DNA from: Clostridia bacterium
GTDB lineage: Bacteria > Bacillota > Clostridia > TANB77 > CAG-508
NCBI GenBank assembly: GCA_017625465.1
Contig: JAGAKS010000016.1
Location: 147,034-211,033 of the forward strand
Direction of reading: 5' to 3'
Length of the DNA: 64,000 nucleotides
Shown here in pieces: positions 4,225 to 35,930 of this stretch (position 1 is the stretch's first letter; the number at the start of each line of letters is the position of its first letter). The notes below the pieces were generated by a model that saw nothing but the letters and a program-made list of their open reading frames with translations, was not told the origin of the DNA and made no database searches. A program made the position numbers and the translations under genes.

Positions 4225-4500
4225 GTTTCCTCCTTAAAAATTAAATTTATATGCTATCTGTTTTTTAATACAAAAAAACCTATAAGCATATAGCTTATAG
4301 GGGTAAGATTTTTCTCACGGTTCCACCCTAATATTTAACTCTTAATAGATTTGTAACGTAATCTTACAACGCCAATTTTTCAATTGGAAACTCCAAGGTA
4401 GTATTTCAAATATGTTTTCTTAAATGTGCTTTCAGCCTACGACACATTCTCTCTATAAGTAACCTTTATTTTACTTGTCCTCTTCACAGTTTACATTTTT
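4225..4500 (-). promoter_or_regulatory. T-box riboswitch leader of thrS. It has the conserved T-box sequence and a terminator/antiterminator.
   Basis: The minus strand reads AATATTAGGGTGGAACCGTGAG (plus 4314..4335), matching the AATTAGGGTGGNACCGCG T-box consensus. A terminator hairpin CCCCTATAAGC...GCTTATAGG plus a U-run lies at 4266..4303. A promoter TTGACA-17-TATTAT lies at 4501..4529 (minus). Confidence 0.7.
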
Positions 4501-22304: not shown

Positions 22305-23660
22305 TTAATATATTTCTAATTGTTGTCTAAACAATTCATTAGCTGTTGTATATAAATTCAAATCTTCATTATTCATCAAAATATTTCTTATATTCCAAAG
22401 TCCTAATCCGTGCTCTTTAGAAGAATCTTCCTTTGAAGTATAACCCTTTTCAAATATTTTATCTAAATCTATATTTTTATTATTATAACTGTTTTCTATT
22501 ATAATTAATTTTCTATCAACTTTGGAATCTTGCATAAATTTTACATTGATTATTTTATTCTCTGTATCTTTAGCAGCTTCAATAGCATTATCTAGTAATA
22601 TTCCTAAAATTCTACATATTTCATAATTGTTTTCACATTTTTCTTCTATTTTTGTTAAAACTTCAATATTCATATTAACACTTTGTTCTTTTGCCAAATA
22701 ATATTTATTTGTAACAATACTATAAATCGCAGAATTTTGTATGATTTTAGGATCTAATATTTCCATTTTATTTACTTTAACACAATCCTCTAAAATTGCT
22801 TTACTCATATTTCTGATACCATCAATATTTTCTGCTTCAACATAACCATCTAGCGCCATTACAAAATTAGAAAAGTCATGCTTAAAACCTCTTATACTAT
22901 CATACATAATTGATAAAGTTTTATTATACACTTCTAATGAATGTATTTTTAATTCTTGAGATTCTACCATATTTATTTTTAAAACATTTTGCATACAAAT
23001 ATATATGTATAACATAATATTTAATAAAATTACTGTATATAAAATATCGTGTTTAATGTTCAATAATTGAAATTCTGTAAGAATAGTTAAAAGCATTCCA
23101 ATAGCTGAAATTATATAGATACTATGTCTGCTCTTCCAATTTAGATGATTACTTAAAAATATATGAACTTTCTTTTTTATTAAGACAAAAAGAATTAGTG
23201 CTCTTACTATCATAATAGAAATTTTTAGGCAAAATGTAAACTTAAAATTATATATTCCTTCTATATAATTAGAAACATCATCAAAACATTCAAATAAACA
23301 TTTTGCTAATATACTTTCAACAGTTATTAAAATAACAACATTTAATGTTTCACATAATGCACATTTTTCTGGTGACTGTTTAAAAAATATTTTGGCTACC
23401 GAGAAAGTTATTATAAAACACAAAATTTTATTAAAAGGTGATGGAACTATTAAAAATATTATAAAATGAACTATACCTAATACCGATACAATACTTAAAA
23501 TTTTCTTTTTACTTACCTTTATATTGAATAATTGTATAAAAAGCAATATATCCATTAACGAAGATATAACTGCATAAGACAAATCTAAAATTAACCATTC
23601 TGGCCAACATACCCAAAAATTGCCAATATCTCTATTCTTTAAAAAAGCATCTCCCAACAT
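22305..23660 (-). CDS. AgrC/ComD-like (HPK10) membrane sensor histidine kinase of the GHKL type.
   Basis: A polytopic N-terminal half is followed by a C-terminal N-box (LGILLDNAIEAA) and G-box (GLGLWNI). No LytTR regulator or AgrB/AgrD gene is adjacent. Confidence 0.7.
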   Translation of the reverse strand: MLGDAFLKNRDIGNFWVCWPEWLILDLSYAVISSLMDILLFIQLFNIKVSKKKILSIVSVLGIVHFIIFLIVPSPFNKILCFIITFSVAKIFFKQSPEKCALCETLNVVILITVESILAKCLFECFDDVSNYIEGIYNFKFTFCLKISIMIVRALILFVLIKKKVHIFLSNHLNWKSRHSIYIISAIGMLLTILTEFQLLNIKHDILYTVILLNIMLYIYICMQNVLKINMVESQELKIHSLEVYNKTLSIMYDSIRGFKHDFSNFVMALDGYVEAENIDGIRNMSKAILEDCVKVNKMEILDPKIIQNSAIYSIVTNKYYLAKEQSVNMNIEVLTKIEEKCENNYEICRILGILLDNAIEAAKDTENKIINVKFMQDSKVDRKLIIIENSYNNKNIDLDKIFEKGYTSKEDSSKEHGLGLWNIRNILMNNEDLNLYTTANELFRQQLEIY

Positions 23661-23776
23661 GTTTTATACACCTCTCTATTTTGTACCATATTATTTTAAT
23701 TTATTTCTGTTATGAAATCAATAAAAAAAGTACAAAATAATTCGACAAAAAATGAGTTTTCGTTTTTACTTAATAT

Positions 23777-24241
23777 TTAAAATGGATCAATTTCAAATTC
23801 AATATCTTCTTTACTGAGAATATCGGCATAAACATCTGCTCTTGTATTTTCTTTATCTGACAATATTCCTAGACTAATGATGTTGTTTCCAGCTTCATAA
23901 TCCTCAAAAATACACTTACCCTCTATTTCATCTTCATTTCCAAAATCTATATTTGTAATAAATTGGTGTCCTTCTCCAGTCTTAGTAAATATAATATTGT
24001 TGTATTTTATTTTATCGTCTGATATTCTTTCATATTTCATTTTTTCAATTATTTTTCCTATGTATATAAGTTGATCATCTGGAATTATAACTAAAACTTT
24101 ATCATTATTTAATTCACATTTTACATACGATACTGTTTCATCTTCTTCTATTGAATACCATGTTTTAGTTTCTACTATATACTCTTCACCTTTAATAATG
24201 ATTTGAGTATTTTTATTTAATTTACTTATTAAATTTTCCAT
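23777..24241 (-). CDS. Hypothetical acidic protein of 154 aa.
   Basis: It is an ORF only. No motif was recognised. Confidence 0.4.
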   Translation of the reverse strand: MENLISKLNKNTQIIIKGEEYIVETKTWYSIEEDETVSYVKCELNNDKVLVIIPDDQLIYIGKIIEKMKYERISDDKIKYNNIIFTKTGEGHQFITNIDFGNEDEIEGKCIFEDYEAGNNIISLGILSDKENTRADVYADILSKEDIEFEIDPF

Positions 24242-24305: not shown

Positions 24306-25664
24306 CTAATTCTTTAGTTCCAGACAAGTTACAACTTCGCAATGATGCGTAAAAGGAAACATATCACATATAGCAACTTTTTCTAAATTATATTGTTCTT
24401 CTAGATATTTTAAATCTCTAGCTAAAGTAGCAGGATTACAACTTACATAAACAATTCTACTAGGTAAGACTTGTAATAATGTATCTAATGCTACTTTATC
24501 ACAACCTTTTCGTGGCGGATCTATAAAAACAACATCTGCTGATAAATTTCTAGTTTTCACAAGTTCTGGTAAAACTTTTTCAACATCTCCTGCAAAAAAC
24601 TCACTATTTTTAATATTATTTATTTTAGCATTTTCTTTTGCATCTTCAATAGCCTCTGGAATAGTTTCAATTCCATATATTTTTTTGACATTATCTGAGG
24701 CAAAAATACCTATAGTTCCTATTCCACAATACAAGTCAAATATTGTCTCTTTCCCCGTTAAATTTGCATATTCTACAGCTTTAGAATACAATTTTTCAGT
24801 TTGAACAGGATTTACTTGATAAAATGAAAGTGGCGAAATTTTAAATTTTTTGTTACCTAAAAAATCATATATATATCCATCACCATAAATAATTTCTGTT
24901 TTATCTCCTAAAATAACATTAGTATTTTTATTATTAATATTTTTGGCAATCGTTTTAATATCCGGATACTTAGATGTTAAAAATTCGACTAACTCTTTTT
25001 CTTTAGGAATATCTTGCATATTAGTAACAAGTGTTACCATTGTCTCATTAGTCTTTTTTCCTTCTCGGATGATTATATGTCTTATACTTCCAGTTAAAGT
25101 TTGTTCGTTATAAACAGGTATATTTTTGTCAATCACAAATTCATAGATAGAATTAGCAATATCTTGAGAACGTTTGTCTTGAATTTTACATTCTTTCGTT
25201 TCTATTATTTTATGAGTTCTAGCCGCATATACTCCCATAACTGCTCTACCATCTTCCGAAACGCCAACCGGATATTGTAACTTATTTCTATAATTATATG
25301 GACTTTCCATTTTTATTACAGAATCAACTTCAACTTTTCTTCCAAGAGCCTTTGATACGGTATTTTCGACTGATATTTTTTTCATATCTATTGTAAAATC
25401 ATAATCTATATGTCTTAATGAGCATCCGCCACATAATCTAGCAGTTTCGCAATCTTCTTCTTTTCTATGTGTAGATTTTTGGGTAATTTCAATTATTTTG
25501 CCAAAAGCATGAGAAGATAACACCTTTAATATTTTAATTTTAACTACTTCACCTTTTATTGAATTAGGAATAAAAACAGGAATACCATCCAACTTAGCAA
25601 TTCCTTCACCTTGAAATCCATTATCTATAATATTTACAACATATTCTTCGTTTTTCTTTAACAT
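24306..25664 (-). CDS. rlmD: 23S rRNA (uracil-C5)-methyltransferase, RlmD/RumA family.
   Basis: An N-terminal TRAM domain, the Fe-S Cys cluster CGGCSLRH and a C-terminal SAM MTase fold with a catalytic Cys are present. Confidence 0.85.
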   Translation of the reverse strand: MLKKNEEYVVNIIDNGFQGEGIAKLDGIPVFIPNSIKGEVVKIKILKVLSSHAFGKIIEITQKSTHRKEEDCETARLCGGCSLRHIDYDFTIDMKKISVENTVSKALGRKVEVDSVIKMESPYNYRNKLQYPVGVSEDGRAVMGVYAARTHKIIETKECKIQDKRSQDIANSIYEFVIDKNIPVYNEQTLTGSIRHIIIREGKKTNETMVTLVTNMQDIPKEKELVEFLTSKYPDIKTIAKNINNKNTNVILGDKTEIIYGDGYIYDFLGNKKFKISPLSFYQVNPVQTEKLYSKAVEYANLTGKETIFDLYCGIGTIGIFASDNVKKIYGIETIPEAIEDAKENAKINNIKNSEFFAGDVEKVLPELVKTRNLSADVVFIDPPRKGCDKVALDTLLQVLPSRIVYVSCNPATLARDLKYLEEQYNLEKVAICDMFPFTHHCEVVTCLELKN

Positions 25665-25762
25665 AACTATCTCCTATTTTACTAACTTTAATATTATATC
25701 ATTAAGTTACTAAAAAGTCACTAATTTTGTCAAAAAAGAAGGATTTCAAGACATGGAAAAAT

Positions 25763-25791
25763 TTGACCGTATAAGCAATTTGTGATATAAT
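25763..25791 (+). promoter_or_regulatory. Near-consensus sigma-A promoter with an extended -10 element (TTGACC, 17 nt, TGATATAAT).
   Basis: TTGACC lies at 25763-25768, followed by an exact 17-nt spacer, a TG at -15/-14 and TATAAT at 25786-25791. Confidence 0.7.
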
Positions 25792-25920
25792 TATATTGTA
25801 CATATTTATTATTCATTACCCATTAAGGGGCTTAACCTAGCTTGTGCATTTTAGCTTTTTTATAACTTGAATATGTACAGTACAATATAGGTTGAGTAAC
25901 GTTTGAAAGGAGTCTTATTT

Positions 25921-26508
25921 ATGACAACACGTATTTGGTTAGACACAGTGGTACTTGCAGCGCTTGATGACGCAAAAGAGGTTCTTGAACGGCTGATTGC
26001 TGAAGGTAAGCAGTTGGTTATCGCCAACACCGCTCTGGACGTCAGAGTCTTTCAGGAGAACATCGATTGGTTTGAGGATCAGCTGGCTGAAGGCAAGATC
26101 AACATCGAAATCTGGAACACTCCGGACGAGATGGTTAGCAAAGAATTCTTCTGGAGTTCTTGCAACATGACATCTGAGCCTTCAACGGATCTGTATGAAG
26201 CAGTCGAAGACTTCCCGAATAAGGAAGCAATCCTGGACATCGCAGATCTGATTTCCGTTTATGGCATGCCGAAAGGTGATTGGGTTATGGGTCCTTGGAC
26301 ACCGCCTGCACCTTTAAGCCCTGAAATTGCCGAAGAGCTTGGAATCTCCACAGCTAGCACCAGAACTGAAGTTCTCGATGCAGCCATGAGCCAGAACAGA
26401 TTTGACCTCTTCAACATCTACAATACCGGCTATTGCACCGGTTTGGCTACGCAGCACAACTGCGACGCCCTACTCAATGTAGATGGCTCCATTACAGAGA
26501 TCGAGTAA
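25921..26508 (+). CDS. Compositionally foreign gene encoding a 195-aa acidic cytoplasmic protein of unknown function (MTTRIWLDTVVLAALDDAKEVLERLIAEGKQLVIANTALD...).
   Basis: Two 60-nt hand counts give 27/60 and 31/60 G+C, against 11/60 in the adjacent native sequence. Codons such as CTG, CCG and GGC are typical of higher-GC genomes. A consensus RBS AAAGGAG lies 8 nt before the ATG. The ORF-track start at 25903 is a TTG that lies within the RBS. Confidence 0.75.
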   Translation: MTTRIWLDTVVLAALDDAKEVLERLIAEGKQLVIANTALDVRVFQENIDWFEDQLAEGKINIEIWNTPDEMVSKEFFWSSCNMTSEPSTDLYEAVEDFPNKEAILDIADLISVYGMPKGDWVMGPWTPPAPLSPEIAEELGISTASTRTEVLDAAMSQNRFDLFNIYNTGYCTGLATQHNCDALLNVDGSITEIE

Positions 26509-26540
26509 GCAATTACTTTATCTGTAGCAAACACAAAATA

Positions 26541-26577
26541 CTCCCCGGACGCTATGTCTGGGGAGTGTTCTTTTTTA
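26541..26577 (+). terminator. Strong rho-independent terminator with a GC-rich stem (CTCCCCGGAC-GCTAT-GTCTGGGGAG) and a T-run.
   Basis: A 10-bp stem with one G-U pair is followed by TGTTCTTTTTT. It may also serve rnr from the opposite strand. Confidence 0.8.
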
Positions 26578-28545
26578 TATTGTTTCATCTGTTTCTGTTA
26601 CCAATTCAAATGCAATTTTTCTAATTAACTTGTTAGCCTCAATAACTCGAATTTTTACCTTATCACCAATCTTAAATACTCTATTTGTTTTTTCTCCAAC
26701 TAAGTTTTTTCTATTTTCATCATAAATATAATATTCATTAGCGCCCATGTTTTCAAATCGAATTAAACCTTCAACCGTACTTTCAAGCTCAACAAACATA
26801 CCAAAGCTTGTAATAGAAGATACTATTCCATCAAATTCTTGTCCAATCTTATCTTCCATAAATTCTGCTTTTTTAATATCTTCTGCCTCACGCTCAGCTT
26901 TTGTTGCAAGCTTCTCACAATCAGAAGATGTTTCTGCATATTTTATAGCTTTTCCTTTTAGCTCTTGCAATCTGTTTTCACTAAGATTATAACCATGCTC
27001 AATATATTCAGAAATAACTCTATGAATAAATAAATCTGGATATCTTCTAATTGGCGAAGTAAAATGACAATAATAGTTACTTGCTATACCAAAATGACCT
27101 TTATTTTCAGCTTCATATCTAGCTATTTTTAAAGTTCTAAGTATTAGTGTTGAAATTACTTTTTCATATTCTGTATCTTTAATTTTATCTAGCACTTCTG
27201 AAAAAGCTTTTGGTCTAATATTATCTTTACTCGCTTTAATTTTATAACCAATATTGAATAAAAATTTATTTGTTTCGTTGATTTTATCTAAATCTGGCTC
27301 TTCATGCACCCTATAAATAAACGGAGCTTCTAACCAATAGAATTTTTCTGCAATAACTTCATTGGCAGTAAGCATAAATTGTTCTATAATTTCGTTTGCA
27401 AAATTCAATTCATATTTTTTTACTTCTATTGCTTTTCCATTTTTATCTAAAACAATTTTACTTTCTGCTATATCTAAATTCAAATAACCTTGTTTTAAGC
27501 GTCTATCTTTCAAAATATGAGCTAATTCTTCCATATCTTTAAAACAAGATATATATTTTTCATATTTTTTAACTACTTCTTTATCTGAATTTGTAATTAT
27601 TTTATAAACATCAGAGTAACTCATTCTTTCAGTTACTCTTATAACAGATTTACAAACATCTGAAGAAATAACATTTCCGTTACCATCAATTTCCATTATA
27701 CATGAAAGTGCAAATCTATCTTCTCCTGCATTTAAGCTACATATTCCATTAGAAAGTTCAAAAGGAAGCATTGGTATAACTCTATCAAACATATATACAC
27801 TTGTACCTCTTTTTACTGCCTCTTTATCTAATACAGAATCTTCTTTTACATAGTAACTAACATCTGCAATATGAACTTCTAAGACGTATGTTCCATCTGC
27901 AGTCTTTTGAACAAAAACAGCATCATCTAAATCTTTGGCATCTTCTCCATCAATAGTAAAAATTGGATGAATATCTCTAAAATCTCTTCTGTTTTTAATA
28001 TCTTTTTTATTTATTTTTTGAGGTATTCCCATTGCTTCTAAAGTAACTGGTAAAGGAAATTCATTTGGCAAAGAAAATTCTTTTATAACACTTAGCATAT
28101 CTACACCAGCTAAGTCTATATTTCCTAGCACTTCTACAATTTCACCCTCTGCATTTTTGCCTTTTTCTGGATATTTTGTAATTTTAGCCACAACTTTATC
28201 ATTATCTCTGGCATTTAAGCATTTATTTTTTGAAATAAAAATATCTGTATCAAATCGTTTATCATCTGGCACAACAAATCCAAAATTTCTACTTTTTTGA
28301 AAAATTCCTACTACAGTATCTTTATCTCTTTTTAATATTTTAACTATTTTTCCTTCTGCTCGTCTTTCTTTAGTTTTAGGTCTAAAAATATTTATTTGAA
28401 CAGTATCTCCGTTTAAAGCTCCATTAACACTTTTAGATGGTATAAACACATCTTCCATTTCTTCGCTTTCAAATTCTACAAAGCCATATCCTTTTTCATT
28501 GGCTCTAAAAATGCCTTCATATTTTCTTTTTTTCTTATTTCCCAC
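26575..28545 (-). CDS. rnr: Ribonuclease R.
   Basis: N-terminal cold-shock/OB domains, the RNB catalytic domain and a C-terminal S1 domain are present. The arrangement secG-rnr is conserved. Confidence 0.9.
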   Translation of the reverse strand: MGNKKKRKYEGIFRANEKGYGFVEFESEEMEDVFIPSKSVNGALNGDTVQINIFRPKTKERRAEGKIVKILKRDKDTVVGIFQKSRNFGFVVPDDKRFDTDIFISKNKCLNARDNDKVVAKITKYPEKGKNAEGEIVEVLGNIDLAGVDMLSVIKEFSLPNEFPLPVTLEAMGIPQKINKKDIKNRRDFRDIHPIFTIDGEDAKDLDDAVFVQKTADGTYVLEVHIADVSYYVKEDSVLDKEAVKRGTSVYMFDRVIPMLPFELSNGICSLNAGEDRFALSCIMEIDGNGNVISSDVCKSVIRVTERMSYSDVYKIITNSDKEVVKKYEKYISCFKDMEELAHILKDRRLKQGYLNLDIAESKIVLDKNGKAIEVKKYELNFANEIIEQFMLTANEVIAEKFYWLEAPFIYRVHEEPDLDKINETNKFLFNIGYKIKASKDNIRPKAFSEVLDKIKDTEYEKVISTLILRTLKIARYEAENKGHFGIASNYYCHFTSPIRRYPDLFIHRVISEYIEHGYNLSENRLQELKGKAIKYAETSSDCEKLATKAEREAEDIKKAEFMEDKIGQEFDGIVSSITSFGMFVELESTVEGLIRFENMGANEYYIYDENRKNLVGEKTNRVFKIGDKVKIRVIEANKLIRKIAFELVTETDETI

Positions 28546-28941: not shown

Positions 28942-29574
28942 TTAAACTTCTACACATTTTACAGCAAGTCTTTCACTTTTATTTGCTGTACAAGTAATCA
29001 ATGTTACTTCTTTCTTTCCATCCGTCATTTGACTTGTACAAGAGGAATCATCTTCACTGATTACATCTTTTGCATACACTTTGTATGACACATCATTACC
29101 TTTTGTATCCATAACTTTAACAATATCACCAATAACAAGGTTTGAAAGTTTGCTAAAATATTTAGAATTACCATAATTATGACCTGCTACACAAAAATTT
29201 CCAACTTCATTTGGATCTGCTCCCCAAAATTTAGTTGGTGCAACCTTTAAATTTTCTGCTGAAGAATCTTTAAGTACTGGATATTTTACTCCTAACTTAT
29301 CTATTGAAATTATAGCTATAATTCTTCCTTGCTTACTATATTTATCAATTTCGTCTAATTCTGTATTATTTTTAACTTCATTTTTGGTAACATTTTCTTT
29401 TGCAGGTGGATTATTAGCAATAGTATTTTCCACTTCTTCTAGTTCTGCATATACTTCTGAATATAAAACTGGATCGTAACCTTCACCAGATTTTATTACT
29501 AAAAAACCTATTCCTGCGCAAACTATTATACTTATTAAAATAACATATATGAAGCTTTTATCGTTTTGTTTCAT
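28942..29574 (-). CDS. Sortase (class A/B-like transpeptidase).
   Basis: An N-terminal TM anchor is followed by the catalytic TLITC motif (KEVTLITCTA) and a downstream Arg. Confidence 0.8.
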   Translation of the reverse strand: MKQNDKSFIYVILISIIVCAGIGFLVIKSGEGYDPVLYSEVYAELEEVENTIANNPPAKENVTKNEVKNNTELDEIDKYSKQGRIIAIISIDKLGVKYPVLKDSSAENLKVAPTKFWGADPNEVGNFCVAGHNYGNSKYFSKLSNLVIGDIVKVMDTKGNDVSYKVYAKDVISEDDSSCTSQMTDGKKEVTLITCTANKSERLAVKCVEV

Positions 29575-30055
29575 CTTTCATTCCTACTTTTTTATTATAC
29601 ATAGAAAATGCAATTAATATTGCTGATGCTACAAAAATTGTTACTAAAAATGTATTTTTTAAAGTATAATTGCTTCCAGTATTAGGTAATTTACCATTAG
29701 ATTTTGAAGTATCTTTTCCTACTGGTAATGTATTTCTTATTTTTGACCAATCTACTTCGTTTGTAGTGTTAGTTGTATTTGTTGTATTTGTTGTGTTGGC
29801 TGTATTAGTAGTATTTGTATTTGTATCTGTATTAGTATTTGTGTCTGCTGTTGTAGTATTAGTTGTATTAGTATCAGCCGGTGTTGTATTAGTATTAGTA
29901 TCTACATTTTCTGTTGTTGTATTTGTTGGGTCTTCAACTGTTGCATCAACTCTAGTAACAAACAAATTACTTACAGTTGCTAAAACTATTGCTACTGTAA
30001 ATATAACCAAAACTTTTTTAAATCCGCTCATATATAAATCTCCTATCTTATCCAT
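29558..30055 (-). CDS. Small Thr/Asn-rich cell-wall-anchored protein with an LPNTG sorting signal.
   Basis: A signal/TM N-terminus is followed by TNT/TNTT repeats, then GKLPNTGS, a hydrophobic segment and a KK...KR tail. It overlaps the sortase gene by 17 nt, which indicates an operon. Confidence 0.75.
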   Translation of the reverse strand: MDKIGDLYMSGFKKVLVIFTVAIVLATVSNLFVTRVDATVEDPTNTTTENVDTNTNTTPADTNTTNTTTADTNTNTDTNTNTTNTANTTNTTNTTNTTNEVDWSKIRNTLPVGKDTSKSNGKLPNTGSNYTLKNTFLVTIFVASAILIAFSMYNKKVGMKDETKR

Positions 30056-32949: not shown

Positions 32950-33230
32950 TTCTTTTTATTTACAAAAAACAAAAAGGTCACTCGCCTATAGGACGAATGA
33001 CCGTGTTACCACCTAAATTCAAAAATTATTTAATAATAATTTTCCTCTAATTTCTTTAACGCAGAATTACGAATATGTTTACTTTAATTTTCAACATATT
33101 AGCTCTAAGGTGATAATAAATAAGTTGTTTTCTGCTAAAATCTCACCAACCTTTAGCTCTCTTTAGATACTTCTTATTTACCGTGTCCTTGTCTTTGCTT
33201 TTTAATATTTACATAAATATATTACCACTT
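32950..33230 (-). promoter_or_regulatory. T-box riboswitch leader of ileS.
   Basis: The minus strand reads AATTTAGGTGGTAACACGG, which matches the T-box consensus. A terminator hairpin GGTCATTCGTCCTATAGGCGAGTGACC at 32974..33000 is followed by a U-run. A promoter TTGACA-18-TAATAT lies at about 33212..33246. Confidence 0.7.
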
Positions 33231-35193: not shown

Positions 35194-35823
35194 TTAAATT
35201 AAAGAAACGTTTTCGAGAATTATTGCTGGAATTTCAGGTAAGCAATGATCCCTTGCAAAAAGTACACAATTGTAGCCATCAAGCAACCGCATATTTTTGT
35301 CCAAAATAACGGGTCGTGGCAATCTGTGATACTTGTTATGGAACTCTAAAATACGATGATATCGTTTACCGCGAAGTTCTGTGCTGGCAAGTTGATAATC
35401 AATAGACCATACATCAACCATTGTAAACCATTTCTTTGGCAGAACAAATCCTCTTTCATGAAAAATATAGTTGCGATTTTCTAGCACTTCTTTGCGGTAC
35501 TGCTTTTGCTCTTTAGGCCTCAACTTTAAAAAGTGAAAATATTCATCACGAGTTAAATTTCCCTTTTCTGAGTTACAAGGTGAACAAGATGGAAAAAGAT
35601 TATTAACAATACTAATGCCACCAGCGTCCCTTGGGTAAGCATGGTCAATAGTTCTTGTTTCCTTCCTAAGCTTTTTATCGCAATAATAGCAACGGTGGTT
35701 CTTAGTTGCGTATGTGAGCTCGTACATTAAATCCTCAAAACGTACATTCTCATAAATAAGCAATTCTCCATTTATAACCTCTGCATATCGCATCCGAAAT
35801 TTGTTGGGTAATTCCATAATCAT
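35194..35823 (-). CDS. HNH endonuclease domain protein.
   Basis: The HNH motif reads CYYCDKKL...HAYPRDAGG...N...CSPCNSEKG. The RBS GGAGGG supports a start at MIMELPNKF. A 60-nt hand count gives about 37% G+C, higher than the neighbouring sequence. Confidence 0.7.
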   Translation of the reverse strand: MIMELPNKFRMRYAEVINGELLIYENVRFEDLMYELTYATKNHRCYYCDKKLRKETRTIDHAYPRDAGGISIVNNLFPSCSPCNSEKGNLTRDEYFHFLKLRPKEQKQYRKEVLENRNYIFHERGFVLPKKWFTMVDVWSIDYQLASTELRGKRYHRILEFHNKYHRLPRPVILDKNMRLLDGYNCVLFARDHCLPEIPAIILENVSLI

Positions 35824-35930
35824 AGTACATCCCTCCAATAAAAAAATGCAAAGCATCGTTTATAAGTGTCTTTAATAGTATATCATAAAATGTTTGATTT
35901 TTCAAGCAAAATATTGATTTCTATGAAAAA

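What the first reader, a model, noticed from the sequence alone, without database searches (positions are those of the whole stretch)
25763..26577. Single-gene compositional island: a foreign-codon gene with consensus expression signals inserted between rlmD and rnr
Seen in the sequence: the 588-bp ORF at 25921..26508 is about 45-52% G+C by hand count on two 60-nt stretches. The flanking intergenic DNA is about 18% and the window as a whole is under 30%. It uses CTG, CCG, GGC and ACC codons that are rare elsewhere in the window. It is framed by a near-perfect sigma-A promoter (TTGACC, 17 nt, TGATATAAT), a consensus RBS (AAAGGAG, 8 nt, ATG) and a GC-rich intrinsic terminator. The 195-aa acidic product (MTTRIWLDTVVLAALDDAKEVLERLIAEGKQ...GYCTGLATQHNCDALLNVDGSITEIE) matches no family I can recognise. 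No integrase, transposase or flanking repeat is visible. It is therefore either a very recent horizontal acquisition from a roughly 50% GC donor or an engineered cassette. It is the only plus-strand unit in a 20-kb minus-strand block.
Basis: seen in the sequence. Interest (0 to 1): 0.85.

Follow-up and report, generated by a model that had tools for sequence, protein, structure and literature searches.

The report
Persistently GC-rich orphan gene cassette
A single self-contained gene with about 48% G+C sits in a 28% G+C gut Clostridia genome; it is natural and old, not engineered or freshly acquired, its alleles recombine, and its family keeps G+C-rich codons in AT-rich hosts for reasons not yet known.

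Summary
ORF 25921-26508 has 48.3% G+C and GC3 0.54; other genes in the window have GC3 of about 0.10-0.17. It has an extended -10 promoter, a ~125-nt leader, a consensus Shine-Dalgarno sequence and a GC-rich terminator that abuts the rnr stop codon.

The window comes from a natural MAG (protein MBO5398113.1), and the exact unit recurs in independent samples. Diverged alleles (81-90% aa identity, dN/dS ~0.15) occupy the same site and form recombination mosaics. The closest species representative has an empty site. Two others carry a 45%-identical relative in the opposite orientation with GC3 0.75. A host whose RNase R is only 45% identical has a homologous unit at the same locus (GC3 0.50). A 25%-identical member elsewhere also forms a G+C spike.

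Between distant members, synonymous codon choice is fully randomised, yet GC3 stays at 0.5-0.75. High G+C is therefore a persistent trait of most of the family. It is not a fresh transfer scar.

The parts
24306..25664 (-). Flanking gene: TRAM + m5U RNA methyltransferase (RlmD/RumA type). It is the constant neighbour of this subfamily of the cassette.
   Evidence: Pfam TRAM, tRNA_U5-meth_tr and Methyltransf_31. The family ORF lies immediately upstream of this gene in the window, L001, L008, L018, L019, L104 and L109.
25693..25721 (-). Promoter of the methyltransferase gene (GTGACT, 17 nt, TGATATAAT), divergent from the cassette promoter. It is present wherever the cassette is present and absent at the empty site in L017.
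   Evidence: Promoter scan. Homologous sequence lies upstream of the methyltransferase gene in L018, L104 and L109. In L017, rnr and the methyltransferase gene are 50 bp apart with no such promoter.
25763..25791 (+). Cassette promoter: -35 TTGACC, 17-nt spacer, extended -10 TGATATAAT.
   Evidence: 11 of 12 hexamer matches plus TG. The same -35 / 17 nt / TGnTATAAT design is found in L001, L008, L010, L109, L018, L019, L104 and L097.
25798..25920 (+). ~123-nt AT-rich leader (G+C 0.30). Its 5' end (TGTACATATT, 25797-25806) is complementary to AATATGTACA (25871-25880). A second conserved helix pairs 25830-25839 with 25888-25897. The Shine-Dalgarno AAAGGAG is at 25906-25912.
   Evidence: Inverted repeat I3; MFE fold. 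The helices are conserved in the window lineage and L109 but have no compensatory changes. Non-coding homology W vs L109 has z = 10.1. No Rfam match.
25921..26508 (+). 195-aa ORF for an acidic (pI 4.1, net charge -24) cytoplasmic protein of an unnamed family, with G+C 0.483 and GC3 0.536. A recombination breakpoint lies near 26200 when compared with allele L010.
26537..26577 (+). GC-rich intrinsic terminator (15-bp stem, 3-nt loop, T-run). The T-run overlaps the stop codon of the convergent rnr gene, so it probably terminates both transcripts.
   Evidence: Terminator scan. The stem keeps pairing through compensatory differences among alleles W, L008 and L001. Equivalent GC-rich terminators are present in L018, L104, L097 and L109.
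26575..28545 (-). Flanking gene: RNase R (rnr), convergent with the cassette.
   Evidence: Pfam OB_RNB, CSD2, RNB and S1 for the L001 orthologue. It is 97% identical to L001 and 91% to L017.

Best explanation
This is a natural, autonomous single-gene accessory unit. It resembles a phage moron (own promoter, own terminator, non-host composition, inserted between two genes that are adjacent in relatives) but lies in a housekeeping stretch of the chromosome of an uncultured gut Clostridia lineage.

The unit consists of a near-consensus sigma-A promoter with an extended -10, a ~125-nt leader whose 5' end is base-paired, a consensus Shine-Dalgarno sequence, a 195-codon ORF, and a GC-rich bidirectional terminator. 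Together these should give strong expression without an activator and a long-lived mRNA.

The product is an acidic cytoplasmic two-domain protein of a small uncharacterised family. The N-terminal domain is Rossmann-like, with conserved Asp/Asn/Thr at the C-terminal ends of the strands (D8, N36, T37, D40). The C-terminal domain is helical and carries a nearly invariant QHxC motif (H179, C181). This layout is typical of a metal- or ligand-binding enzyme site, but the activity is unknown.

Shown:
- The gene is an old resident of the site upstream of the methyltransferase gene.
- Its distribution is patchy: present, absent, or replaced by a distant family member in the opposite orientation.
- Its alleles are exchanged by homologous recombination, so its genealogy is decoupled from the flanking genes.
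- G+C-rich codon usage has persisted through complete synonymous turnover in several AT-rich hosts.

Inferred:
- The high G+C is held against the host's A/T mutation pressure by a force acting on overall coding composition, not on specific sites. I think the most likely force is selection for a stable, structured, nuclease-resistant mRNA.
- The fast, mosaic, patchy evolution fits a conflict-type accessory function (immunity, anti-nuclease, or a self-limiting hydrolase).
For: Autonomy and composition.

Natural origin and replication across samples.

Protein-coding and constrained: dN/dS 0.14-0.24; AF2 pLDDT 96.4 with a 48-sequence alignment.

Patchy occupancy of one site:
- Empty in L017, L041, L043, L044 and L051.
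- A native Lys/Glu-rich gene fills it in L020-L039 and L042.
- A 45%-identical member in the opposite orientation with GC3 0.75 fills it in L018, L019 and L104.

Decoupled genealogy:
- ORF dS 0.4-1.05 against flank dS 0.10-0.32 in the window lineage.
- ORF dS 0.49 against flank dS 0.77-1.28 for L018 vs L019.
- A breakpoint inside the ORF near 26200 and two C-terminal haplotypes plus hybrids.

Long residence: L109 has the same methyltransferase(-) / ORF(+) / rnr(-) arrangement and homologous non-coding DNA (z = 10.1). Its ORF is 48% identical and its RNase R 45% identical.

Persistence of G+C:
- GC3 is 0.47-0.76 in 5 separate lineages whose host genes have GC3 0.07-0.26.
- Codon choice at identical residues between distant members equals chance, so synonymous sites are saturated.
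- No member was seen in a G+C-rich host in any of the contexts examined (15 family genes, about 10 lineages).
- Family amino-acid composition (GARP/FYMINK 0.3-1.3) is not that of high-G+C organisms.

The G+C step is confined to the coding sequence and the terminator; leaders are 0.30-0.38.

mRNA design:
- 5'-end stems in all three leader types, with an A-T to G-C compensatory change between L018 and L019.
- Coding sequences fold better than their own synonymous shuffles: z -1.1 to -4.6, mean about -2.0, against -0.65 for 12 host genes.
Against: - Composition is not universal in the family: L108 (GC3 0.24, host 0.22), L009 (0.28) and the second L101 copy (0.35) are near-native. The series 0.75, 0.54, 0.28, 0.24 can also be read as stages of amelioration.
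- My direct tests of the substitution process are not robust. Parsimony polarisation (18 A/T to G/C vs 17 G/C to A/T) is subject to an artefact that is gross in the flanking genes (72 vs 2). The two-state likelihood model rejects the host equilibrium (p = 0.002) but also gives a wrong, inflated equilibrium for the flanks.
- The only two very recent polymorphisms are both G/C to A/T.
- The extra folding stability is modest and overlaps the host distribution.
- Leader helices show no covariation (0 of 25 pairs).
- No expression data exist.
- Protein function is unknown: no family, fold or neighbour gives it away.
- I could retrieve DNA for only about 15 of roughly 90 family clusters, so an unseen G+C-richer reservoir cannot be excluded.
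Confidence: 0.5

Rival explanations
1. Serial recent horizontal acquisition with ordinary neutral amelioration. The family lives in an unsampled pool of about 50-60% G+C (organisms or mobile elements) and is repeatedly delivered into AT-rich Clostridia. Each copy then decays toward host composition.
For: Strong compositional contrast. Empty site in the nearest species. Patchy distribution. A graded series of GC3 values, 0.75 / 0.47-0.58 / 0.35 / 0.28 / 0.24. A model with the host equilibrium fixed still fits with a root GC3 of 0.67. A G+C-rich sequence under A/T pressure is expected to show about 2.5 times the flank dS, which explains part of the rate excess (inference). Two of two recent polymorphisms are G/C to A/T.
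Against: No member was found in a G+C-rich context in any of the contexts examined (15 family genes, about 10 lineages). None was found in 185,579 species genomes by a subfamily pattern, in IMG/VR, in JGI metagenomes, or in phage or plasmid collections. The W and L109 units share locus and non-coding homology yet are saturated at synonymous sites, and both have GC3 ~0.5. L018 and L019 both keep GC3 0.75 although their flanks have dS ~1. L018-type proteins have a low-G+C-type amino-acid composition with GC1 0.51-0.54 and GC2 0.36. Transfer into the same site by flank homology needs AT-rich donors.
Confidence: 0.25
2. A recombination hotspot with GC-biased gene conversion. The ORF is a hotspot for exchange between diverged alleles, and biased repair of heteroduplex mismatches drives G+C upward without any selection on the mRNA.
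For: Clear mosaicism and decoupled genealogies. In bacteria, recombining genes have higher GC3, mostly through non-optimal G/C-ending codons (PMC4450053). The elevation here also involves non-optimal G-ending codons. The high-divergence tract coincides with the ORF plus terminator, as does the G+C step. No site-specific synonymous constraint was found.
Against: The bacterial association reported in that paper is an average GC3 difference between recombining and non-recombining core genes, and H. pylori shows none. Whether biased conversion could sustain a shift as large as the one here (0.12 to 0.54-0.75) was not evaluated. L108 and L009 are not elevated. The rnr 3' end also shows recombination tracts but has GC3 0.12.
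Confidence: 0.12
3. An engineered or laboratory cassette, or an assembly chimera.
For: Textbook-quality promoter, Shine-Dalgarno sequence and terminator around a codon-foreign ORF.
Against: The source is a MAG. Identical junctions appear in at least 6 independent assemblies. There are natural allelic series, compensatory changes in the terminator stem, and homologous units in other uncultured species. There is no match to any plasmid.
Confidence: 0.01
4. The G+C-rich segment is really a structured non-coding RNA gene, and the ORF is incidental.
For: G+C-rich islands in AT-rich Firmicutes are a classic signature of structured RNAs. The unit has its own promoter and terminator. MFE z = -2.7 against dinucleotide shuffles.
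Against: dN/dS ~0.15 with the reading frame intact in all homologues down to 22% identity. The protein model is very confident. No Rfam match. Synonymous positions are randomised between distant members, so no base pairs are conserved.
Confidence: 0.02

Closest known systems
Phage morons (HK97 gene 15 type; defined in PMC3594210)
   Same: An independent transcription unit with its own promoter and terminator. Its G+C differs from the surrounding genes. It is inserted between two genes that are adjacent in related genomes. It carries an accessory gene of initially unknown function. No dedicated mobility gene is present.
   Different: It is not in a phage or prophage: the neighbours are ileS, secG, rnr and an rRNA/tRNA methyltransferase gene. 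No family member was found in phage or viral collections. The same site is occupied in both orientations, and the alleles recombine like a polymorphic chromosomal locus. The composition difference has persisted and is not merely a sign of recent transfer.
Single-gene genomic islets or ORFan horizontal acquisitions undergoing amelioration (Lawrence-Ochman model; my own knowledge, not from a tool)
   Same: Atypical G+C and codon usage, patchy phylogenetic distribution, an empty site in a close relative, and faster protein evolution than the flanks.
   Different: Amelioration predicts decay toward host GC3 on the time-scale of synonymous saturation. Here, saturated lineages at one locus still have GC3 0.5-0.75.
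Polymorphic conflict loci maintained by recombination (orphan immunity genes, pherotype loci; my own knowledge, not from a tool)
   Same: Diverged allele classes sit at one chromosomal site between conserved genes. There are mosaic alleles, presence/absence polymorphism, an acidic product, and tandem diverged paralogues in one relative (L101).
   Different: No cognate toxin, secretion system or signalling gene is nearby. Conserved Asp/His/Cys residues at a Rossmann-type site suggest an enzyme, not a simple binder. The compositional anomaly is not a feature of those loci.
PIN-like and HAD-like Rossmannoid hydrolase domains

Membership tests
Phage moron | Own promoter and own terminator flanking the gene | tested here: met
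   Consensus-type promoter at 25763-25791 and intrinsic terminator at 26537-26577. The same design recurs in homologous units. These are sequence predictions only; there are no transcript data.
Phage moron | Nucleotide composition differs from the surrounding genes | tested here: met
   GC3 0.536 against ~0.12. It is the only region of the window with 300-nt G+C >= 0.40.
Phage moron | An insertion relative to related genomes ('more DNA') | tested here: met
   rnr and the methyltransferase gene are 23-90 bp apart in L017, L025, L041, L043, L044 and L051.
Phage moron | Resides in a phage or prophage genome and spreads among phages | tested here: not met
   The flanks are housekeeping genes. There are no hits in INPHARED, PLSDB or IMG/VR for five subfamilies, and no BFVD structural match.
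Integrative genomic island or integron cassette | Integrase or transposase, a tRNA/att target, and flanking direct repeats or attC | tested here: not met
   No such gene adjoins the unit in any locus. No conserved terminal repeats were found; the best inverted pair is an A-run against a T-run and is not conserved among alleles. The nearest tRNA genes are more than 13 kb away.
PIN-domain nuclease | Match to a PIN profile or fold, with the conserved acidic residues | tested here: not met
HAD-superfamily phosphatase or nucleotidase | Motif I DxDx[TV] at the end of strand 1, plus a profile match | tested here: not met
Known anti-phage defence or toxin-antitoxin components | Match to a PADLOC or PHROG model, or a defence-type gene partner | tested here: not met
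   No PADLOC or PHROG family at E <= 1. The unit is a single gene. The weak hit to the nuclease inhibitor Nin (E = 0.075) vanished with the broader profile.
Structured non-coding RNA or cis-regulatory leader (Rfam) | Covariance-model match or covariation-supported structure | tested here: not met
   There is no Rfam match for the ORF or the leaders. Zero of 25 leader pairs show compensatory change. Synonymous sites are randomised between distant members.

The most novel reading that the evidence does not exclude
The coding composition of this gene family is actively held far from the host's mutational equilibrium (GC3 0.5-0.75 against ~0.1), as part of an mRNA built to survive and be translated when ordinary A/U-rich host messages are not. 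The design comprises a sequestered 5' end, a strong Shine-Dalgarno sequence, a G+C-rich structured body and a strong 3' hairpin. Such a message would suit a conflict or stress gene that must work while A/U-directed ribonucleases (host toxins, phage enzymes, or possibly its own PIN-like product) are active. This would be a natural case of gene-specific, composition-level synonymous selection running opposite to the host's codon bias.
Probability: 0.22. Interest if true: 0.8.

Novelty: new variant of a known kind. Interest (0 to 1): 0.6.

Why it matters
Compositional outliers are routinely taken as proof of recent horizontal transfer. Here the anomaly has outlasted complete synonymous turnover at a fixed chromosomal site in several AT-rich lineages. 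If that holds up, it is a counter-example to the amelioration clock. It would also be a tractable system for asking what can hold a single bacterial gene 40 GC3 points from its genome: mRNA-level selection, biased gene conversion, or an unseen reservoir.

Separately, the finding defines a small, unnamed family of acidic proteins in gut Clostridia. The family has a very confident predicted structure without any solved or viral structural relative, a conserved Asp/Asp/His/Cys constellation, and the population genetics of a conflict locus. It is a reasonable target for functional discovery.

Tried and rejected
1. Parsimony polarisation of synonymous changes. The ORF gave a balanced 18:17, which looked decisive. 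The same method on the flanking genes gave an impossible 72:2. This is mis-polarisation under strong base-composition bias, so I do not rely on it.

2. Two-state non-stationary likelihood model. For the ORF it gave an equilibrium GC3 of 0.54 and rejected the host value at p = 0.002. On the flanks it returned 0.2-0.5 when the true GC3 is ~0.10. The model is misspecified, probably through rate heterogeneity among sites. I report it as suggestive only.

3. Weak PDB sequence hit to the B. subtilis DNA-entry nuclease inhibitor (4mqd, E = 0.075). It disappeared with the 48-sequence profile, so it was chance.

5. Phage or plasmid origin. blastn and tblastn against INPHARED and PLSDB, five IMG/VR scans and one JGI metagenome scan were all negative.

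6. Terminal repeats or att sites: none credible.

7. Conserved RNA structure inside the ORF: rejected by the codon-sharing test. A conserved leader structure is unproven.

8. Very recent polymorphisms among near-identical copies: only 2-3 differences, too few to test.

9. Leader homology between the window and L009: not significant on 103 nt. L009 is placed at this locus by gene context only.

10. A first folding-shuffle script timed out and was re-run.
Full report

Yes. The ORF at 25921-26508 (+) encodes 195 aa. Its G+C is 0.483 and GC3 is 0.536. The window overall is 0.279. Forty-seven other ORFs of at least 150 aa have GC3 of 0.096-0.22, apart from one HNH endonuclease gene at 0.326. It is the only place in the 64 kb where a 300-nt window reaches 0.40 G+C.

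- TTGACC, 17 nt, TG-n-TATAAT at 25763-25791.
- AAAGGAG 8 nt before the ATG.
- A 15-bp GC-rich hairpin with a T-run (26537-26577) that overlaps the stop codon of the convergent rnr gene.

The flanking genes are a TRAM + m5U RNA methyltransferase gene and RNase R. The minus-strand block it interrupts is about 47 kb, not 20 kb. The adjacent intergenic DNA is 22-26% G+C, not 18%.

**2. It is a real protein gene of an unnamed family.**

No Pfam, NCBIfam, PHROG or PADLOC model matches. None of 48 family members hits Pfam either. A word-indexed search of 5.8 billion proteins found 4 relatives. An exhaustive profile search of 1.84 billion representatives found 61 clusters, all about 185-215 aa.

Conserved residues lie at the C-terminal ends of the N-domain strands (D8-T9, N36-T37, D40, W65-D69) and in a C-terminal QHxC motif (H179, C181). 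From general knowledge of Rossmann-like folds, this layout is typical of a ligand or metal site. The family is mostly acidic, with median pI 4.9; this member has pI 4.1 and net charge -24. The structured-RNA reading is rejected. The frame is preserved down to 22% identity, there is no Rfam match, and synonymous positions are randomised between distant members.

**3. It is neither engineered nor a chimera.**

The exact protein is NCBI MBO5398113.1, a hypothetical protein of a Clostridia bacterium MAG on a 291-kb contig. The identical unit with identical junctions was assembled from at least six other samples. The host clade is a set of uncultured gut Clostridia MAGs from mouse, rabbit, chicken, sheep and human, near Candidatus Scatovivens.

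**4. History at the locus.**

- *Same site, diverged alleles.* Four alleles (81-90% aa identity) sit between the methyltransferase gene and rnr, with nearly identical promoter and leader.
- *Empty sites.* In the closest species representative (L017, RNase R 91%), rnr and the methyltransferase gene are 50 bp apart, and the methyltransferase promoter is also missing. L025, L041, L043, L044 and L051 are likewise adjacent.
- *A native alternative.* Most relatives with RNase R at 72-79% identity carry an AT-rich Lys/Glu-rich ~155-aa gene in the gap.
- *A xenologue in the other orientation.* L018, L019 and L104 (RNase R 86-87%) carry a family member only 45% identical. It is on the same strand as rnr and has its own TTGCCA / TGGTATAAT promoter, a 136-nt leader, a GC-rich terminator, and GC3 of 0.75. 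The methyltransferase promoter beside it is homologous to the window's.
- *A distant host with the same arrangement.* L109 has RNase R only 45% identical and different genes beyond it. It still has methyltransferase(-) / ORF(+) / rnr(-). Its ORF is 48% identical with GC3 0.505, against host GC3 of 0.07-0.13. Its upstream non-coding DNA is homologous to the window's: local alignment z = 10.1, with 0 of 400 shuffles reaching the score.
- *L009.* This 58%-identical member (GC3 0.28) lies next to the Lys/Glu-rich gene and a flavin-reductase-like gene, as in L034, so it is at the same locus.

**5. The ORF's genealogy is decoupled from its flanks.**

In the window lineage, ORF dS is 0.41-1.05, while rnr, ileS, secG and the sortase gene have dS of 0.10-0.32. 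For L018 vs L019 the relation reverses: the ORF has dS 0.49 and the flanks 0.77-1.28.

W and L010 differ at 0-5 sites per 60 nt up to about 26200, and at 11-21 per 60 nt beyond it. Against L008 and L001, the high-divergence tract starts at the ORF start and ends just past the terminator. At the protein level, an invariant N-terminal half is combined with two C-terminal haplotypes and hybrids. These patterns show recombination between diverged alleles. They do not fit local hypermutation.

**6. High G+C is a family trait, though not a universal one.**

| Group | GC3 | Host GC3 |
|---|---|---|
| Window lineage | 0.47-0.54 | ~0.12 |
| L109 | 0.505 | 0.07-0.13 |
| L018 type (L018, L019, L104) | 0.75-0.76 | 0.13-0.23 |
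| L097 (25% identical, unrelated neighbourhood, own extended -10 promoter, 200-nt leader, GC-rich terminator) | 0.58 | 0.09-0.15 |
| L101a / L102 / L103 | 0.47-0.53 | 0.23-0.30 |
| L108 (exception) | 0.24 | 0.22 |
| L009 (exception) | 0.28 | 0.13-0.24 |
| Second L101 copy (exception) | 0.35 | not measured |

No member was found in a G+C-rich context. The family's GARP/FYMINK ratios (0.3-1.3) do not look like proteins from high-G+C organisms. L018-type genes combine GC3 0.75 with GC1 0.51-0.54 and GC2 0.36. The composition step is confined to the coding sequence and the terminator stem; leaders are 0.30-0.38.

**7. Is it decaying or maintained?**

My first two tests do not stand up. Parsimony polarisation gave a balanced 18:17 for the ORF. 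The same procedure gave 72:2 in the flanks, a known mis-polarisation artefact. A non-stationary two-state likelihood model gave an equilibrium GC3 of 0.54 for the ORF and rejected 0.125 (LRT 9.55, p = 0.002). It returned 0.2-0.5 for flanks whose GC3 is 0.10, so it is misspecified. I treat both results as suggestive only.

The more robust argument is comparative. Between W and L009, L109, L018 or L108, codon identity and G/C-vs-A/T class at identical residues equal the per-amino-acid chance expectation (p = 0.14-0.74). Close pairs such as W-L001 and L101a-L102 remain strongly correlated. Synonymous sites have therefore turned over completely. The present GC3 must reflect the equilibrium of the process under which that happened. 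W and L109 are homologous in place (locus and non-coding DNA), and both reside in hosts with GC3 ~0.1. L018 and L019 also keep 0.75 across flank dS of about 1.

The remaining ways out are an unsampled G+C-richer reservoir with repeated import, GC-biased gene conversion at a recombination hotspot (PMC4450053), or selection on overall coding composition. One search also shows there is no site-specific synonymous constraint. Any selection must therefore act on bulk properties, not on particular base pairs.

**8. mRNA design (inference).**

All G+C-rich members with upstream DNA share a -35 / 17 nt / TGnTATAAT promoter and a 125-210-nt leader whose 5' end is paired:
- Long-range TGTACATATT / AATATGTACA in W and L109.
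- A local hairpin in L018 and L019 with an A-T to G-C compensatory change.
- TTTGGCGA / TCGCCAAA in L097.

From established work on Bacillus mRNA decay (my knowledge), 5'-terminal stems, strong Shine-Dalgarno sequences and 3' hairpins protect messages from RNase J1, RNase Y and 3' exonucleases.

The coding sequences fold more stably than their own synonymous shuffles, with z of -1.1 to -4.6 and a mean of about -2.0. Twelve host genes average -0.65 (sd 0.92). In absolute terms the ORF folds at about -184 kcal/mol, while 600-nt host segments fold at about -100. The first 12 codons of the window ORF have GC3 of 0.33, and the rest 0.55. That suggests the gene has adapted in place for translation initiation, although L109, L018 and L097 do not show such a dip. 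This evidence is consistent with a message built for stability, but it is modest and there are no expression data.

**9. Comparison with known systems.**

The unit meets three of the four features of a phage moron as defined in PMC3594210: its own promoter and terminator, deviant G+C, and insertion relative to related genomes. It fails the fourth, because it is chromosomal and has no phage links. It lacks the integrase, att sites or repeats of genomic islands. It is not a member of the PIN, HAD, defence or Rfam families tested.

**10. Verdict.**

The 'engineered' and 'very recent' readings are not supported. The best reading is a long-resident, recombining, moron-like accessory gene of an uncharacterised acidic protein family, whose G+C-rich codon usage persists in AT-rich hosts. 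The cause of that persistence, and the protein's function, remain open.

Noticed in passing
window 35194-35856 (-): A 220-aa HNH endonuclease gene (PF14279/PF01844) is the only other GC3 outlier in the window (0.326 against ~0.12). It may be another foreign or mobile gene.
   Followed up: partly
window 32986-33204 (-) and 4296-4496 (-): Two T-box leaders score above the Rfam gathering threshold. The first lies upstream of ileS.
   Followed up: no
window 29558-30055 (-) and 28942-29574 (-): A 165-aa Thr/Asn-repeat protein with an LPNTG sorting motif overlaps the start of a sortase gene. This looks like a dedicated sortase-substrate pair. The substrate has no Pfam match.
   Followed up: no
L020 8005-8466 and equivalents in L022-L039 and L042; L009 762-1160: More distant relatives have a native AT-rich gene for a Lys/Glu-rich ~155-aa protein (no Pfam match) in the rnr-methyltransferase gap. 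In L009 it sits beside the family ORF.
   Followed up: partly
L103 3-605 and 630-1190: A group II intron-type reverse transcriptase (YADD motif) lies directly upstream of a family member whose N-terminus is replaced. This suggests an intron insertion into the 5' end of the gene.
   Followed up: no
L101 136-780 and 1115-1807; L102 507-725: One relative carries two tandem, diverged family paralogues (33% identical; GC3 0.53 and 0.35). In this subfamily a G+C-rich 72-aa ORF with no Pfam match immediately precedes the gene.
   Followed up: partly
L018 8869-9972; L104 10738-11844; L105 10475-11308: The methyltransferase gene beside the L018-type cassette is 368 aa (277 aa in L105), against 452 aa in the window. 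It may be truncated or remodelled at the C-terminus.
   Followed up: no
window 26600-26840 (3' part of rnr): Copies that are otherwise identical to the window across the cassette (L011, L013) differ at 3-8 sites per 60 nt here. Recombination tracts therefore also end inside rnr.
   Followed up: partly
window 26053-26055 and 26452-26454 (Gln45, Gln178): Both family-wide conserved glutamines are encoded by CAG in all nine sequences compared, including the two members with near-native AT-rich composition, where I would expect CAA to dominate. This may be a codon-specific constraint.
   Followed up: no
window 22305-24241 (-) vs L008 474-1145: The genes beyond the methyltransferase also vary among close relatives. 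The window and L011 have a 154-aa ORF (the window also has a GHKL, AgrC/LytS-like kinase gene beyond it, where the L011 contig ends). L008 has an HD-domain gene instead.
   Followed up: no
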